Virus genome (UHGV): UHGV-0281963
DNA: 23,374 nucleotides
Direction: 5' to 3' (one strand)
Source of the DNA: a virus
Positions 8,854 to 11,260 of the stretch are shown in pieces (the first letter of the stretch is position 1; each line of letters opens with the position of its first letter). The translations under genes were made by a program, and so were the position numbers. The notes below the pieces were generated by a model that was not told the DNA's origin, searched no databases, and saw only the letters and a program-made list of their open reading frames with translations.

Positions 8854-8975
8854 CTCTGTCGCGGTTTCTATCCGGGGTTCCTAATCCCGACGCCAGATTT
8901 TGCTGGCGTGCGATGAATATAATCCCGGATACGCGACGTTGTCAAACTGATGGCATTGCAGATCCCTACGCAATG

Positions 8976-8990
8976 TAACACTATGTGTTA
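8976..8990. promoter_or_regulatory. 15-bp perfect palindrome TAACACTATGTGTTA, candidate operator of the RelE-like/HTH module
   Basis: Perfect inverted repeat just upstream of toxin ATG 9013; a consensus -10 TATAAT lies at 8918-8923. Confidence 0.4.
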
Positions 8991-9012
8991 TACATTAATA
9001 ACGGAACAAAAA

Positions 9013-9327
9013 ATGCGCATTTTTAAAAACGCCTGGTTTGAGCGATTTGCACGCAAAAACAAAATATCCGACCAGTCACTGCGCGAAATTGTTAAACAGG
9101 CTGATAACGGGCTTATCTCAGCAAACCTGGGTAACGGCGTTATCAAGCAACGTCTGCCACGAGTCGGTGGCGGCAAATCTGGCGGTTATCGCACAATCAT
9201 TTTCTATCGCGTCGGCACAAGGGCCTTTTTCGTATATGCATACGCAAAAAATGAACGTGAAAATATAACCGCTACTGAGGAAGTGCATTTCGGAAGGGGC
9301 TCCTCACGTACTCAATCTAACAGATGA
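9013..9327 (+). CDS. RelE/ParE-superfamily toxin (Gp49/HigB-like)
   Basis: MRIFKNAWFERFARKNKISDQSLREIVKQADNGL...GGGKSGGYRTIIFYRVGTRAFFVYAYAKNERENITATE fits the RelE/ParE-like killer-protein pattern; toxin-first order with a downstream HTH antitoxin is the HigBA-type arrangement. The ORF track offers an upstream start at 8950; I prefer ATG 9013. Confidence 0.7.
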   Translation: MRIFKNAWFERFARKNKISDQSLREIVKQADNGLISANLGNGVIKQRLPRVGGGKSGGYRTIIFYRVGTRAFFVYAYAKNERENITATEEVHFGRGSSRTQSNR

Positions 9328-9374
9328 ACAACTGGCACAACTGATTCTACAGGGTCAGTTTACGGAGGTACCCA

Positions 9375-9692
9375 ATGAGTAAAAATTACCGCAGTGATGC
9401 GCTTGCATCCGTACATGAAATGATGGAATCGCTTCATGATATCGGCGCAGTAACGAAACAGACTATGCGAGAATTCGATGAAACTTGTCTCCAGCCAGCG
9501 CCGGTAATGTCTCCGGAAAGGATCCGTGCACTGCGCGAACGAGAGCATCTGTCTCAACCTGTTTTTGCCAGATACCTCAACGTCAGTAAAAACCTGATAT
9601 CAGACTGGGAACGTGGTGTAAAACGGCCGGGAGGTGCCGCTCTTCGCCTTCTTTCAGTCGTAGAGAAAAACGGAATCCAGGTAATATCATGA
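9375..9692 (+). CDS. HTH (XRE-like) antitoxin/transcriptional regulator, partner of the upstream toxin
   Basis: 105 aa; RBS GGAGG before ATG 9375; helix-turn-helix-like segment LSQPVFARYLNVSKNLISDWERG; 47-bp gap from the toxin stop. Confidence 0.7.
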   Translation: MSKNYRSDALASVHEMMESLHDIGAVTKQTMREFDETCLQPAPVMSPERIRALREREHLSQPVFARYLNVSKNLISDWERGVKRPGGAALRLLSVVEKNGIQVIS

Positions 9693-9706
9693 TACTCCAA
9701 TACAAC

Positions 9707-9728
9707 AAAACCCGCCGAAGCGGGTTTT
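9707..9728. terminator. bidirectional rho-independent terminator between convergent toxin operons
   Basis: aaaacccgc-cgaa-gcgggtttt: GC stem flanked by A-run on one side and T-run on the other; lies between the plus operon (ends 9692) and the minus operon (ends 9743). Confidence 0.6.
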
Positions 9729-9742
9729 CATTAGAAGCACCT

Positions 9743-10228
9743 TTAGTTTTGCTGTTCTATTTTAAGCTTGATAGTTTCATACAAAACAATAGTTGCGCCT
9801 GTTTTACATAATTCCCGGCTGTCATACGCACGAGACCAATAACACAACCAGTTCTCGAGATCTTCTCGAGTATAGGTTTTGCAGGCCAGTCCCTCTGCCA
9901 TTTCCACGATTTCATCGCCTGGTGCTGTTAACTCATAGCCATTCAACAACAAGAAGACATAACCAGCCATCATAGCTGTTCGTTTGTTTGCATTAGCAAA
10001 TGGATGATTCTGAATCAGACTTTCAATCAATACTGATGCCAGTACAAACATGTCATTAGTCTGTTCATACCATCGAACCATGCTGGGACGAGACTGAGAA
10101 GAACTTAAATTATCAACACTCAGCACACTAACAGGTTCATCTGGTGTTTGAAGCTCAATTAAAAGGCGATTAATTTCGGTAAGATCATCAAACGAAAGGT
10201 AGTGCACTCCTTCAACAATCTCAGCCAT
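9743..10228 (-). CDS. doc: Doc-family toxin (Fic/Doc fold)
   Basis: Motif HPFANANKRTA matches the Doc-type Fic motif (HxFx[D/N][A/G]NKR). ATG at 10228-10226 (MAEIVEG...); the ORF-track start at 10237 is a TTG. Confidence 0.75.
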   Translation of the reverse strand: MAEIVEGVHYLSFDDLTEINRLLIELQTPDEPVSVLSVDNLSSSQSRPSMVRWYEQTNDMFVLASVLIESLIQNHPFANANKRTAMMAGYVFLLLNGYELTAPGDEIVEMAEGLACKTYTREDLENWLCYWSRAYDSRELCKTGATIVLYETIKLKIEQQN

Positions 10229-10246
10229 AGAGCACAATACCCATCA

Positions 10247-10426
10247 TTACACTTTTGAAAGTTCTTCCATTGCCTTCTCGTAACGAGAAAAACCGAAATC
10301 GAAAGCATTTTTCACCTGCTCACGATGAGTGCAATTTTCATCGATAGCCGGGCGCGGAGCTGCCACAACGCTTTTATCGCGAGGGGGAATAGTCAATCGC
10401 GGGTGTTTTTTTAGTGCGTAGCTCAT
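10247..10426 (-). CDS. putative antitoxin of the Doc module (small ORF immediately upstream)
   Basis: 59-74 aa ORF ending 18 nt before the Doc ATG; RBS AAGGG before ATG 10426; imperfect palindrome aggctaatg...catagcct (10490-10513) in its upstream region. No recognisable Phd similarity; role inferred from position. Confidence 0.45.
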   Translation of the reverse strand: MSYALKKHPRLTIPPRDKSVVAAPRPAIDENCTHREQVKNAFDFGFSRYEKAMEELSKV

Positions 10427-10544
10427 TGGGTGTACCCTTACTTCTCCGTCCTGTTCTTTAACAAAAATCAAGTCAATACAAAATTAGTCAGGCTAATGTT
10501 GTTAGCATAGCCTAATACCGATCGTATTCACAACCACAGTACGT

Positions 10545-10567
10545 GAAAAAACCCGCCGAAGCGGGTT
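10545..10567 (-). terminator. rho-independent terminator (minus-strand orientation) downstream of hok
   Basis: aaaaaacccgc-cgaa-gcgggtt; same 18-bp core as the 9707-9728 hairpin. Confidence 0.5.
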
Positions 10568-10635
10568 AAGTGCGGGTGCGTTGAGGATGCCTGACACATC
10601 AGAGGTGGCGAGGGATTTCTCCCTCGCCTGGTCTC

Positions 10636-10791
10636 TTACTCCTCAGGTTCGTAAGCTGTGAAGACAGTGACCTCCGTCTGGCCGGTTCGGATTCGTACCT
10701 CGCAGAGGTCTTTCCTCGTTACCAGTGCCGTCACAATGACGGTAATACAGATGACGATCAGGGCGACTAACATCGCCTTTTGCTGCTTCAT
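10636..10791 (-). CDS. hokD: Hok/Gef-family type I toxin (HokD/RelF-like)
   Basis: MKQQKAMLVALIVICITVIVTALVTRKDLCEVRIRTGQTEVTVFTAYEPEE (51 aa) is near-identical to HokD/RelF as I recall it; RBS AGGAGA before ATG 10791. An in-frame upstream ATG at 10848 would add 19 residues (70 aa total). Confidence 0.8.
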   Translation of the reverse strand: MKQQKAMLVALIVICITVIVTALVTRKDLCEVRIRTGQTEVTVFTAYEPEE

Positions 10792-11036
10792 AGCCTGCTT
10801 CTCCTTGCCTTTCGGCGCGTAAGAGGCTAACCTACATGTGTCTAGCATGAAATTGGCCTCAGATTAATGTTAGGCGTCTTGCAGGACGCGTAATGTTAAC
10901 TGGGGCTTTTCTCTGTCTGCCTTACGGTGGCATGCCCGAGGCAGACAGCCTCAAGCACCCGCAGCAATTCTACTTAACTCTCGCTTTACCGCAAACCGTT
11001 TTTACCCGATATGGGAATTCCCATATCGTAATGAAT

Positions 11037-11141
11037 TCAGTTCCCTAGTCGATCCATCAAAAACACAACCAGGCAGTAAACGCCCACAACAGCAATAACA
11101 GCCAGCGCACCTTCCATTGCCAGTGATATATCATCCGACAT
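11037..11141 (-). CDS. small hydrophobic peptide (34 aa)
   Basis: Below the ORF-track size cutoff; found by reading the minus strand: strong RBS GGAGGG (rc of 11145-11150) then ATG 11141; MSDDISLAMEGALAVIAVVGVYCLVVFLMDRLGN. Confidence 0.35.
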   Translation of the reverse strand: MSDDISLAMEGALAVIAVVGVYCLVVFLMDRLGN

Positions 11142-11176
11142 ATTCCCTCCTTTGGTGTTAATCCCGGCGAACGTTT

Positions 11177-11260
11177 TTACCCCCACCGACAAATAACATA
11201 TACTAAAAAAGTGATAGCCATAGCAACGCCTGTAATTGCAAATGCTTCAGGCCAGTTCAT
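11177..11260 (-). CDS. small hydrophobic peptide (27 aa), translationally coupled to the upstream gene
   Basis: ATG 11260-11258 overlaps the stop of the DUF551 gene (ATGA), preceded by GGAGG; MNWPEAFAITGVAMAITFLVYVICRWG. Confidence 0.4.
   Translation of the reverse strand: MNWPEAFAITGVAMAITFLVYVICRWG

What the first reader, a model, noticed from the sequence alone, without database searches (positions are those of the whole stretch)
8950..10848. Island of three adjacent toxin modules of different types
Within 1.9 kb lie a RelE/ParE-like toxin with a downstream HTH antitoxin (plus strand), a convergent antitoxin-Doc pair (minus strand) sharing a bidirectional terminator, and a Hok-family type I toxin. 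This insertion sits between the ORF6N gene and the replication-side genes. The density suggests a stabilisation or abortive-infection hotspot rather than chance.
Basis: partly seen in the sequence, partly recalled or inferred. Interest (0 to 1): 0.6.

Follow-up and report, generated by a model that had tools for sequence, protein, structure and literature searches.

The report
Three toxin-antitoxin cassettes in a prophage
A variable slot in an E. coli lambda-like prophage holds three separately mobile toxin-antitoxin cassettes of known kinds; one toxin gene is broken by frameshifts, and the Doc toxin is paired with a small, uncharacterised partner protein.

Summary
Profile searches support all three family assignments: a RelE-superfamily toxin (PF06296, closest solved relative V. 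cholerae HigB2) followed by a HigA2-like HTH antitoxin; a Doc kinase-type toxin (TIGR01550, motif HPFANANKR) preceded by a 59-aa gene; and a complete hok/mok/sok locus.

Three corrections:
- **The RelE-like toxin is frameshifted.** Two 1-nt deletions leave native residues 1-90 of 123. All 31 listed E. coli genomes carrying the three-module island have a frameshift-length allele (6 checked by sequence). An intact allele differing only at those two sites exists in a sister prophage that lacks Doc.
- **This is not one insertion.** hok, Doc and RelE-HTH occur independently at this slot. The 821-bp Doc cassette is bracketed by two exact copies of a 20-nt terminator, and sister prophages have one copy and no Doc.
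- **The Doc partner is not Phd.** It belongs to a small family with no Pfam, PDB or Phd similarity. It is predicted to be disordered with one C-terminal helix. A Doc gene lies immediately downstream in 16 of 17 informative non-E. coli contexts.

The locus extends to 10960 (hok mRNA 5' end). A stabilisation or abortive-infection role is untested. Overall this is ordinary, with a modestly new Doc partner family.

The parts
8950..9012 (+). Upstream control region of the relE-like/HTH operon. Candidate promoter TTGCAG(8956-8961)-17-CACTAT(8979-8984), overlapped by the imperfect inverted repeat GTAACAC-TAT-GTGTTAT (8975-8991), a candidate operator.
   Evidence: Sequence read directly. Homologues start at MRIFKNAW. 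Promoter and operator are inferred, not tested.
9013..9327 (+). RelE-superfamily (PF06296, HigB2-like) toxin gene, frameshifted. The product is 104 codons: native residues 1-90 followed by 14 out-of-frame residues. The remaining C-terminal coding sequence continues in another frame to 9384.
   Evidence: Pfam 1.4e-37 over profile positions 1-95/120. Nearest PDB relative is VcHigB2. There are two 1-nt deletions relative to the intact 123-aa allele of L018 and L015. Residues R47, R60, Y77 and K79, which align with the VcHigB2 catalytic residues, are retained (and PMC5416850).
9375..9692 (+). HigA2-like antitoxin and repressor, 105 aa. The N-terminal half has no domain match. The C-terminal half is an HTH_3 domain (residues 50-94). 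The ORF is intact.
   Evidence: Pfam HTH_3 1e-7. phrog_2104 3e-43. Best PDB hit is V. cholerae HigA-2, 7.9e-8, with the same length and layout. The protein is identical (WP_000042397.1) in the six fetched island carriers (L001, L002, L012-L014, L020) and in L018.
9707..9728 (.). Bidirectional intrinsic terminator shared by the HTH gene (+) and doc (-). This is copy 1 of the exact 20-nt repeat AAAACCCGCCGAAGCGGGTT (9707-9726).
   Evidence: Terminator scan, repeat D2 and sequence.
9743..10228 (-). doc: a death-on-curing (Fic-fold) toxin of 161 aa with the motif H-P-F-A-N-A-N-K-R. Its C-terminal 31 residues lie beyond the P1-Doc profile.
   Evidence: TIGR01550 1.3e-35, 122 bits. PF02661. phrog_577 1e-50. 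PDB hits are E. faecalis Doc 9vzc at 1e-12 and P1 Doc 3k33 at 1e-4. pN/pS is about 0.1 against other alleles.
10247..10426 (-). 59-aa partner of Doc and its presumed antitoxin. Residues 1-33 are predicted disordered and contain a conserved IPxRDK motif. Residues 34-57 form one confident helix (…QVKNAFDFGFSRYEKAMEELSKV).
   Evidence: Only match is phrog_2208, function unknown. No Pfam, NCBIfam, PADLOC or PDB match. hhalign against P1 Phd gives probability 1%. AlphaFold2 model. A Doc homologue lies immediately downstream in 16 of 17 informative non-E. coli contexts. pN/pS is about 0.1.
10504..10533 (-). Candidate promoter of the 59-aa/doc operon: TTGTGA(10533-10528)-18-TATGCT(10509-10504). The palindrome AGGCTA-N12-TAGCCT (10513-10490) overlaps the -10 element.
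   Evidence: Read from the sequence. In L008 the two hexamers keep their positions while the spacer differs. Inferred only.
10548..10567 (-). Copy 2 of the 20-nt repeat. This is the terminator hairpin of hok mRNA and the left boundary of the hok module in thousands of E. coli genomes.
   Evidence: Repeat D2. Alignments of hok-only prophages start at 10547/10548. Sister loci L018, L003 and L004 have a single terminator copy here (20/20 identical in L018 and L004, diverged in L003).
10545..10960 (-). Full-length hok mRNA. The 5' end GGGUGCUUGAGG (10960-) pairs with the 3' fold-back element CCUCAACGCACCC (about 10585-10573).
   Evidence: Rfam RF01794 at 116.9 bits over the full model, 10786-10960, on the hok-sense strand. 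The MFE fold pairs the 5' and 3' ends.
10636..10848 (-). mok (70 codons, ATG at 10848) overlapping hok (51 codons, 10636-10791).
   Evidence: ORF list. PF01848 2.9e-22. phrog_251 'MokW-like' 5e-32. Colinear with the annotated mokW/hokW of phage 933W.
10840..10910 (+). Sok antisense RNA. Coordinates are transferred from the annotated sokW of phage 933W. Candidate promoter TTGCCT(10805-10810)-17-TAACCT(10828-10833). A strong hairpin is followed by GGGGCUUUUCUCU.
   Evidence: The gap-free alignment to 933W (94% mean column identity) gives an offset of +9063. Fold of the candidate. Not tested experimentally.

Best explanation
The region is a variable accessory ('moron') slot in the nin region of a lambdoid E. 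coli prophage. It lies between the replication-side genes (DUF1627-DUF977-DUF551) and an isrK/C4-controlled antirepressor followed by ninB. The slot has accumulated three independently mobile, self-contained toxin-antitoxin cassettes, each with its own promoter and terminator.

1. **hok/mok/sok (type I).** The full-length hok mRNA is kept inert by 5'-3' fold-back pairing. Sok antisense RNA blocks mok-coupled translation. When Sok is no longer supplied, Hok damages the inner membrane.
2. **59-aa protein plus Doc (type II).** Doc is a Fic-fold kinase expected to phosphorylate EF-Tu and stop translation. The upstream 59-aa protein, which is disordered apart from one C-terminal helix and has no DNA-binding domain, is inferred to neutralise Doc by binding it.
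3. **HigB2/HigA2-type module, toxin gene first.** Here the ribosome-dependent mRNase gene is frameshifted. It loses helix alpha3 and the C-terminal tail, and it loses the stop/start overlap with the antitoxin gene. The antitoxin/repressor gene is intact. This module is most likely a decaying TA locus that now supplies mainly antitoxin.

Cassettes are gained and lost by recombination at shared sequences. The Doc cassette sits between two exact copies of the hok terminator.

Shown here: the anatomy, the family membership, the frameshifts, the cassette boundaries and the conserved gene pairing. Inferred: toxicity, neutralisation, the promoters and the biological role (prophage retention, competition or possibly phage exclusion).
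For: **Families**
- Profile and structure-database matches support all three assignments.

**hok locus**
- The Rfam model is matched over its full length.
- The 5' and 3' ends pair in the MFE fold.
- sokW coordinates transfer from phage 933W through a gap-free alignment.
- E. coli K-12-type hokD matches only 10547-10805, so it lacks the leader region that is present here.

**Independent distribution in 5426 E. coli genomes**
- About 4700 genomes match the region, most through the hok part only; the Doc cassette is in 125 and RelE-HTH in 217. All three are adjacent in about 31-34.
- Doc lies immediately downstream of hok in every locus fetched, with different downstream nin genes.

**Cassette boundaries**
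- The window equals L018 plus 841 bp (the 821-bp Doc cassette and a second 20-mer). L018, L003 and L004 have one copy. The Doc-only loci L005 and L008 also have two.

**Toxin decay**
- Intact 123-aa alleles exist in L018, L015, L019 and L003.
- The window allele, identical in strains 23CRST047/049, has two 3' deletions.
- The O104:H4 and ML35 groups carry a deletion in the 5' A-run, with or without the 3' C deletion.
- The same alleles recur in independent assemblies.

**Doc partner**
- An exhaustive HMMER search found only 39 representative proteins, nearly all small (38-95 aa; the two long hits match only locally).
- A Doc homologue follows 4-17 nt downstream in 9 of 9 species-representative genomes, from Serratia to Yersinia, Xenorhabdus and Orbaceae.
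- The same pairing is seen in an Ewingella myovirus tail module, in two Pseudomonas phages and in metagenome contigs.
- Both genes are under purifying selection.
Against: - No experiment or expression data are available here, so toxicity, neutralisation and the promoters are inferred.
- The truncated RelE-like protein keeps all four residues that align with the VcHigB2 catalytic residues. In VcHigB2, helix alpha3 carries no catalytic residue. Residual activity therefore cannot be excluded.
- The 59-aa protein has no DNA-binding domain, so the usual antitoxin-mediated autoregulation is unexplained.
- One family member (L011) is not followed by Doc.
- Whether the Doc-less state is ancestral (insertion) or derived (deletion between the repeats) is not resolved.
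Confidence: 0.75

Rival explanations
1. The slot is a dedicated anti-phage defence (abortive-infection) hotspot. The TA cassettes are retained because an infecting phage shuts off host transcription, the labile antitoxins (Sok RNA, the 59-aa protein, HigA2) decay, and Hok and Doc kill or arrest the cell before phage release.
For: - The slot has variable content in related prophages.
- A SIR2-family gene lies next to hok in another prophage (L024).
- From my own knowledge, not tested here: hok/sok has been reported to exclude T4, and several type II and III TA systems act as abortive-infection systems.
Against: - No protein matches a specific PADLOC defence-system model. The only hits are generic HTH models and two weak Doc hits to the candidate family PDC-S23 (E 0.002-0.0045).
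- One of the three toxins is being lost by frameshifts in every listed island.
- hok is present in about 87% of E. coli genomes regardless of context, which fits a selfish or maintenance element equally well.
- No phenotypic data are available.
Confidence: 0.3
2. The cassettes are purely selfish addiction modules that pile up at a permissive, non-essential site of the prophage. They give no benefit to phage or host, and they decay once redundant.
For: - The RelE-like toxin has been frameshifted repeatedly and in different ways while the antitoxin is retained.
- Each cassette has a patchy, independent distribution.
- The same Doc pair is inserted as a moron in unrelated phage contexts.
Against: - doc and the 59-aa gene are under purifying selection (pN/pS about 0.1) and are intact in all loci fetched.
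- The hok locus keeps all of its regulatory elements here.
Confidence: 0.35
3. The 59-aa gene is not the Doc antitoxin. It could be a regulator, a chaperone or an unrelated small phage protein. Doc would then be controlled some other way, for example by its own C-terminal extension.
For: - The protein has no similarity to Phd or to any known antitoxin family.
- It has no DNA-binding domain.
- This Doc subfamily has a conserved extra C-terminal motif, WLxxWSRxYDSRxLC.
Against: - The gene order and the tight spacing (4-18 nt) upstream of Doc are conserved in 16 of 17 informative non-E. coli contexts, from Enterobacterales to Pseudomonas phages.
- This is the standard signature of a type II antitoxin.
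- A disordered protein with a C-terminal binding helix resembles the Doc-binding part of Phd (established knowledge of Phd-Doc).
Confidence: 0.15
4. The frameshifts in the RelE-like gene are homopolymer sequencing errors, and the toxin is in fact intact.
For: All three indels lie in or next to short runs (A5, A3, G/C).
Against: - The window allele is identical in two other assemblies.
- The O104:H4 allele is the same in 17 genomes from different laboratories and sequencing platforms.
- The ML35-type allele is found in 10 genomes.
- PGAP annotates correspondingly shortened ORFs.
Confidence: 0.05

Closest known systems
hok/sok of plasmid R1 and hokW/mokW/sokW of Stx phage 933W (type I toxin-antitoxin)
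   Same: - A 51-aa Hok peptide with PF01848.
- An overlapping mok frame.
- A leader matched by Rfam RF01794 over its full length.
- 5'-3' fold-back pairing.
- An antisense Sok with a conserved promoter and hairpin.
- 91-94% nucleotide identity to the 933W locus.
   Different: Nothing essential differs. The position in the phage genome is different: the nin region here, near the right end in 933W. PGAP names the gene hokD, but the K-12 hokD/relF locus matches only 10547-10805 and lacks the leader that is present here.
Phd-Doc of phage P1 (type II TA; Doc is an EF-Tu kinase)
   Same: - Doc matches TIGR01550 end to end and carries the Doc-type motif HxFx(D/N)(A/G)NKR.
- A small gene lies just upstream on the same strand.
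- The module is carried by a temperate phage.
   Different: - The partner is not a Phd/YefM-family protein. It has no N-terminal DNA-binding domain and no sequence similarity (hhalign probability 1%).
- The partner is predicted to be disordered with a single helix.
- Doc is 161 aa rather than 126 aa, with a conserved extra C-terminal motif.
HigB2-HigA2 of Vibrio cholerae (RelE-superfamily mRNase, toxin gene first)
   Same: - The nearest solved relatives of both proteins are VcHigB2 and VcHigA2.
- The toxin gene comes before the antitoxin gene.
- The antitoxin is about 105 aa with a C-terminal HTH.
- Residues aligned to the catalytic R51, R64, Y82 and K84 are conserved (PMC5416850).
   Different: - The relationship is distant (E about 3e-3 for the toxin).
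- The toxin belongs to Pfam PF06296, which has a longer C-terminal tail.
- In this window the toxin gene is frameshifted after residue 90 and loses helix alpha3.
Morons and accessory slots of lambdoid prophages (nin region)
   Same: - Self-contained promoter-gene-terminator units sit inside the early-right operon.
- Their content is mosaic and variable between related prophages.
   Different: The slot is occupied only by TA cassettes. The junctions of the Doc cassette are an exact 20-nt duplicated terminator.

Membership tests
Hok/Sok type I TA | Hok/Gef family peptide (about 50 aa, one transmembrane helix, PF01848) | tested here: met
   PF01848 E 2.9e-22 over profile positions 1-42/42. phrog_251 5e-32.
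Hok/Sok type I TA | Overlapping mok reading frame that couples hok translation | tested here: met
   The 70-codon ORF 10636-10848 contains hok in the same frame. It is colinear with the annotated mokW.
Hok/Sok type I TA | Structured mRNA leader, Sok antisense RNA and 5'-3' fold-back inhibition | tested here: met
   Rfam RF01794 at 116.9 bits, model positions 1-157. The MFE fold pairs GGGUGCUUGAGG with CCUCAACGCACCC. The Sok promoter and hairpin are conserved with the annotated sokW. Transcripts were not observed.
Hok/Sok type I TA | Membrane toxicity of Hok and relief by Sok | not testable with these tools
   Requires expression experiments.
Doc (death-on-curing) toxins | Fic-fold domain matching the DOC_P1 profile | tested here: met
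   TIGR01550 at 122.2 bits (cut-off 38.65), residues 11-130 against profile positions 2-122/122. PDB Doc hits.
Doc (death-on-curing) toxins | Doc-type active-site motif HxFx(D/N)(A/G)NKR, with K in place of the second G of the Fic motif | tested here: met
   H-P-F-A-N-A-N-K-R, read in the translation and aligned to the same motif in 9vzc and P1 Doc.
Phd-Doc module | Upstream antitoxin of the Phd/YefM family, with an N-terminal DNA-binding domain and a C-terminal Doc-binding helix | tested here: not met
   No Pfam, NCBIfam or PDB match. hhalign against P1 Phd gives probability 1%. The model shows only one helix, residues 34-57.
Type II TA module (generic) | A small gene conserved immediately upstream of the toxin across taxa and genomic contexts | tested here: met
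   9 of 9 species-representative genomes, 5 of 6 informative metagenome or isolate contexts, 2 of 2 Pseudomonas phages and all E. coli loci fetched.
FicA/VbhA-type (class I Fic) antitoxins | Inhibitory helix motif (S/T)xxxE(G/N) | tested here: not met
   No such motif is present in the 59-aa sequence or in the family consensus. The motif definition is from my own knowledge.
RelE/ParE superfamily, PF06296 (HigB2-like) | Match to the family profile and conserved catalytic residues | tested here: met
   PF06296 at 129 bits. R47, R60, Y77 and K79 align with VcHigB2 R51, R64, Y82 and K84 (PMC5416850).
RelE/ParE superfamily, PF06296 (HigB2-like) | Complete open reading frame (123 aa) whose stop overlaps the antitoxin start | tested here: not met
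   Two 1-nt deletions give a stop at 9325-9327, 48 nt before the antitoxin ATG. Only profile positions 1-95/120 are covered. Intact alleles L018 and L015 are 372 nt.
HigA2-type antitoxin | About 100-aa protein with a C-terminal HTH, encoded downstream of the toxin | tested here: met
   HTH_3 at residues 50-94. Best PDB hit is VcHigA-2, 7.9e-8, residues 45-99 against 39-93.
Known anti-phage defence systems (PADLOC-DB v2) | A match to a system-specific protein model | tested here: not met
   The only hits are generic HTH models for the antitoxin and two weak Doc hits to the candidate family PDC-S23 (E 0.002 and 0.0045, 44-46 residues). The RelE-like protein, the 59-aa protein and Hok have none.

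The most novel reading that the evidence does not exclude
The 59-aa protein defines a previously uncharacterised class of Doc antitoxin. It would be a minimal, mostly disordered inhibitor with one C-terminal helix and no DNA-binding domain. It is co-inherited with a Doc subfamily that carries an extra conserved C-terminal motif. The pair spreads as a two-gene moron among temperate phages of Enterobacterales and Pseudomonas. Regulation of this module would then have to differ from the Phd-Doc conditional-cooperativity paradigm.
Probability: 0.55. Interest if true: 0.45.

Novelty: new member of a known kind. Interest (0 to 1): 0.3.

Why it matters
As a whole the island is ordinary: known TA families in a known kind of prophage accessory slot, already auto-annotated in E. 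coli O104:H4 genomes. Three points are worth keeping.

- **A natural before-and-after pair.** L018 and this window differ by the Doc cassette, which is bounded by a duplicated 20-nt terminator. This shows concretely how morons are swapped in lambdoid phages.
- **Toxin decay caught in progress.** A series of independent frameshift alleles affects one toxin while its antitoxin stays intact.
- **A possible new Doc antitoxin family.** This small, unnamed protein family (phrog_2208) is faithfully linked to Doc and is a cheap, testable candidate for a new antitoxin class.

Tried and rejected
- **Modelling the Doc complex.** I tried to fold a fused 59-aa-linker-Doc chain. The tool refuses sequences that are not exact window or search sequences.
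- **Scanning species genomes with the wide alignment.** A3 had no stretch conserved enough to search with. The narrower A2 worked.
- **Linking the 59-aa family to known antitoxins.** There were no Pfam hits for any of 41 members, no PDB hit by profile and no Phd relation by hhalign. I rejected 'Phd-like'.
- **A conserved operator upstream of the doc operon.** None was found across distant members. Only the promoter hexamer positions are shared within E. coli.
- **Doc insertion as the cause of relE decay.** All listed Doc-bearing islands have frameshift-length relE alleles (6 confirmed by sequence). However, phage PhiR12_3, which lacks both Doc and hok, has the same A-run frameshift. The link may simply reflect shared ancestry.
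- **Literature.** Searches found no paper describing this island or the 59-aa family.
- **A note on the Rfam 'sok' hit.** It lies on the hok-sense strand and ends at the hok AUG. It therefore marks the hok leader, which is the Sok target, and not Sok itself.


Full report
**Context.** The window is a lambdoid E. coli prophage whose early-right operon runs on the minus strand. A 99.7%-identical copy in E. coli O104:H4 2011C-3493 is annotated in this order: cI(LexA-like)/cro/cII, replication genes, DUF1627, DUF977, DUF551, a 34-aa ORF, hokD, a hypothetical 59-aa protein, a Doc toxin. These are followed, on the opposite strand, by an HTH protein and a RelE/ParE toxin. The order then continues with an ORF6N antirepressor, ninB, ninE, DUF1364, rusA, ninH, Q and the lysis genes. 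The finding therefore lies in the nin region. Rfam also places two sRNA genes between the ORF6N gene and the island: isrK (8832-8909, -) and C4 (8722-8806, -).

**Checking the observation.** All three family assignments pass profile searches.
- The plus-strand ORF is PF06296 'RelE' (E 1.4e-37).
- The next ORF (9375-9692) is an HTH_3 protein.
- The minus-strand 161-aa ORF is a Doc toxin (TIGR01550, 122 bits against a cut-off of 38.65; phrog_577 'Doc-like toxin') with the Doc motif HPFANANKR.
- The 51-aa ORF is Hok (PF01848, E 2.9e-22), nested in a 70-codon mok frame.
- The hairpin at 9707-9728 between the convergent HTH and doc genes is a symmetric, terminator-like element.

The toxin starts at 9013, not 8950. 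The hok locus reaches about 10960.

**Module 1 is HigB2/HigA2-like, and its toxin is frameshifted.**
- The nearest solved structures are V. cholerae HigB-2 for the toxin and HigA-2 for the antitoxin (E 7.9e-8, same length and layout). The toxin-first gene order agrees.
- The Pfam match covers only profile positions 1-95 of 120.
- Alignment with related prophages explains why. Strain HCP4S3_I4 (L018) has a 372-nt gene encoding 123 aa that ends 8 nt inside the antitoxin gene. The window gene differs from it only by two single-base deletions near the 3' end. These give native residues 1-90, then 14 out-of-frame residues, then a stop 48 nt before the antitoxin ATG.
- Other island carriers are damaged differently. 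The O104:H4 clone has a deletion in an A5 run at codons 15/16 plus one of the 3' deletions. The ML35/FORC group has the A-run deletion alone.
- Of 37 genomes with a relE-like gene at least 96% identical, the 31 that also carry Doc have frameshift-length alleles. Six of these were verified by sequence. The six genomes without Doc have intact-length alleles.
- The ML35-type and window-type alleles share no lesion, so there were at least two independent inactivations.
- The antitoxin protein is identical in every carrier fetched (the six island loci and L018).
- The same alleles recur in many independent assemblies, so sequencing error is unlikely.
- Two caveats apply. First, the residues aligned with the VcHigB2 catalytic residues R51, R64, Y82 and K84 (window R47, R60, Y77, K79) are upstream of the frameshift. 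In VcHigB2 the lost helix alpha3 carries no catalytic residue (PMC5416850). Residual activity is therefore possible. Second, phage PhiR12_3, which has neither Doc nor hok, also has the A-run frameshift. The association with Doc may reflect ancestry rather than cause.

**Module 2 is Doc with an unrecognised partner.**
- The 59-aa ORF upstream of doc matches only phrog_2208, which has no known function. It has no Pfam, NCBIfam, PADLOC or PDB relative, either as a single sequence or as a 41-member family.
- Profile comparison with P1 Phd gives 1% probability.
- An exhaustive HMMER search of 1.8 billion representative proteins found only 39 relatives, nearly all small (38-95 aa). The two long hits (2917 and 1274 aa) match only locally.
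- The family shares an IPxRDK motif and a C-terminal segment, QVxNAFxxGFxRYEKAxExLSKV.
- AlphaFold2 predicts a disordered N-terminal half and one confident helix at residues 34-57.
- Gene linkage is the main evidence that this is the Doc antitoxin. A Doc homologue starts 4-17 nt downstream in 9 of 9 species-representative genomes: Serratia, Kluyvera, Citrobacter, Hafnia, Rosenbergiella, Yersinia pestis, two Xenorhabdus species and an Orbaceae bacterium.
- The same pairing is seen inside a myovirus tail/baseplate module in Ewingella, in four further metagenome contigs and next to the integrase end of two Pseudomonas phages.
- One contig (L011) is an exception.
- Both genes evolve under purifying selection, with pN/pS about 0.1.
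- This Doc subfamily is about 160 aa long and carries a conserved motif, WLxxWSRxYDSRxLC, beyond the end of the P1-Doc profile.
- Neutralisation by the C-terminal helix, in the manner of the Doc-binding end of Phd, is an inference. How the operon is regulated without a DNA-binding antitoxin is open.

**Module 3 is a complete hok/mok/sok locus.**
- Rfam RF01794 matches 10786-10960 over the whole model at 116.9 bits. The match is on the hok-sense strand and ends at the hok AUG, so it marks the mRNA leader.
- The 420-nt stretch folded (10960 down to 10541, spanning the roughly 415-nt transcript) folds with its 5' end (GGGUGCUUGAGG) paired to a 3' element (CCUCAACGCACCC). This pairing sits just before a terminator hairpin and is the classical fold-back arrangement.
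- A gap-free alignment to phage 933W, where sokW is annotated, places Sok at about 10840-10910 on the plus strand. The candidate promoter (TTGCCT-17-TAACCT) and the hairpin are conserved.
- The K-12 hokD/relF locus matches only 10547-10805 and lacks this leader.

**The region is three cassettes, not one island.**
- In 5426 complete E. coli genomes, about 4700 match the region (most through the hok part only), the Doc cassette is in 125 and the RelE-HTH cassette in 217. All three are adjacent in 31-34.
- At the same slot, related prophages carry hok alone (O157:H7, L004), hok+Doc (L005-L008), hok+RelE-HTH (L003, L018) or all three. The downstream nin genes differ among them.
- The boundaries are sharp. 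The 20-mer AAAACCCGCCGAAGCGGGTT occurs exactly twice in the window, at 9707 and 10548, on either side of the 821-bp Doc cassette.
- L018, L003 and L004 have one copy at the corresponding place. The window equals L018 plus 841 bp.
- Thousands of hok-only alignments begin at 10547/10548.
- The Doc cassette therefore carries, or has duplicated, the hok terminator. It can be gained or lost by recombination between the two copies. The direction of the event is not resolved.

**Function.** The anatomy fits self-contained promoter-gene-terminator morons embedded in the early operon. Candidate promoters are listed under parts, but they are consensus matches only. Nothing here tests stabilisation against abortive infection. 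There is no specific PADLOC defence match; the only hits are generic HTH models and two weak Doc hits to the candidate family PDC-S23. I found no paper on this locus. A SIR2-family gene lies beside hok in one other prophage, which hints that defence genes can use the neighbourhood. The decay of one toxin argues against strong selection on all three.

**Verdict.** The families are correct. The hotspot idea is supported as cassette turnover, but not as a demonstrated function. One of the three toxins is defective. Novelty is low overall. The Doc partner family is the one element that may be a new variant.

Noticed in passing
window 8722-8909 (-) and 7997-8668 (-): The isrK (69 bits) and C4 antisense RNA (66 bits) genes sit directly upstream of the ORF6N/P22_AR_C antirepressor on the same strand. 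A near-consensus promoter, TTGACA-18-TATATT, lies at 8945-8916. The arrangement resembles the P1 immI (c4-ant) unit and the Gifsy-1 isrK-anrP antirepressor control unit. The segment 8315-8931 is itself a repeated module: ML35-type prophages have a second copy in front of another ant gene.
   Followed up: partly
window 4767-4973 (-): There is a strong Rfam match to the sRNA STnc100 (164 bits, full model) in the late-operon leader region.
   Followed up: no
window 9743-10426 vs L006/L007: The 59-aa gene is identical at synonymous sites to the O121:H19 and APEC O1 copies (pS = 0). The adjacent doc gene differs at pS 0.21-0.29. This implies a recombination breakpoint between the two genes of the cassette.
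   Followed up: partly
L003 (E. coli 7_12_30A) 2500-4600: The modules are permuted relative to the window. RelE-HTH, then hok, then the isrK/C4/ORF6N unit lie on the far side of hok. The blocks therefore shuffle independently.
   Followed up: partly
L024 (E. coli ETEC4075) 3091-5679; other prophages: An IS481 element and a SIR2-family gene lie next to hok in one prophage. In other prophages QueH or DUF4406/ead genes replace DUF551 on the other side of hok. Both flanks of hok are therefore variable.
   Followed up: no
L029-L037, residues about 125-145 of the Doc homologues: The Doc proteins paired with the 59-aa family share a conserved C-terminal motif, W-L-x-x-W-S-R-x-Y-D-S-R-x-L-C, which lies outside the P1-Doc profile. 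Its role is unknown.
   Followed up: no
L019 (E. coli SCU-104) 2501-3501: In this prophage an intact RelE-HTH pair is followed by an extra 'HigA family addiction module antitoxin' gene and a BRO-N gene in place of hok. This is another variant of the slot's content.
   Followed up: no
window 11037-11192 (-): A small conserved ORF (34 aa in RefSeq, WP_001278450.1; up to 51 aa from an upstream TTG start) lies between hok and DUF551. It travels with the hok module in many prophages and has no family match.
   Followed up: no
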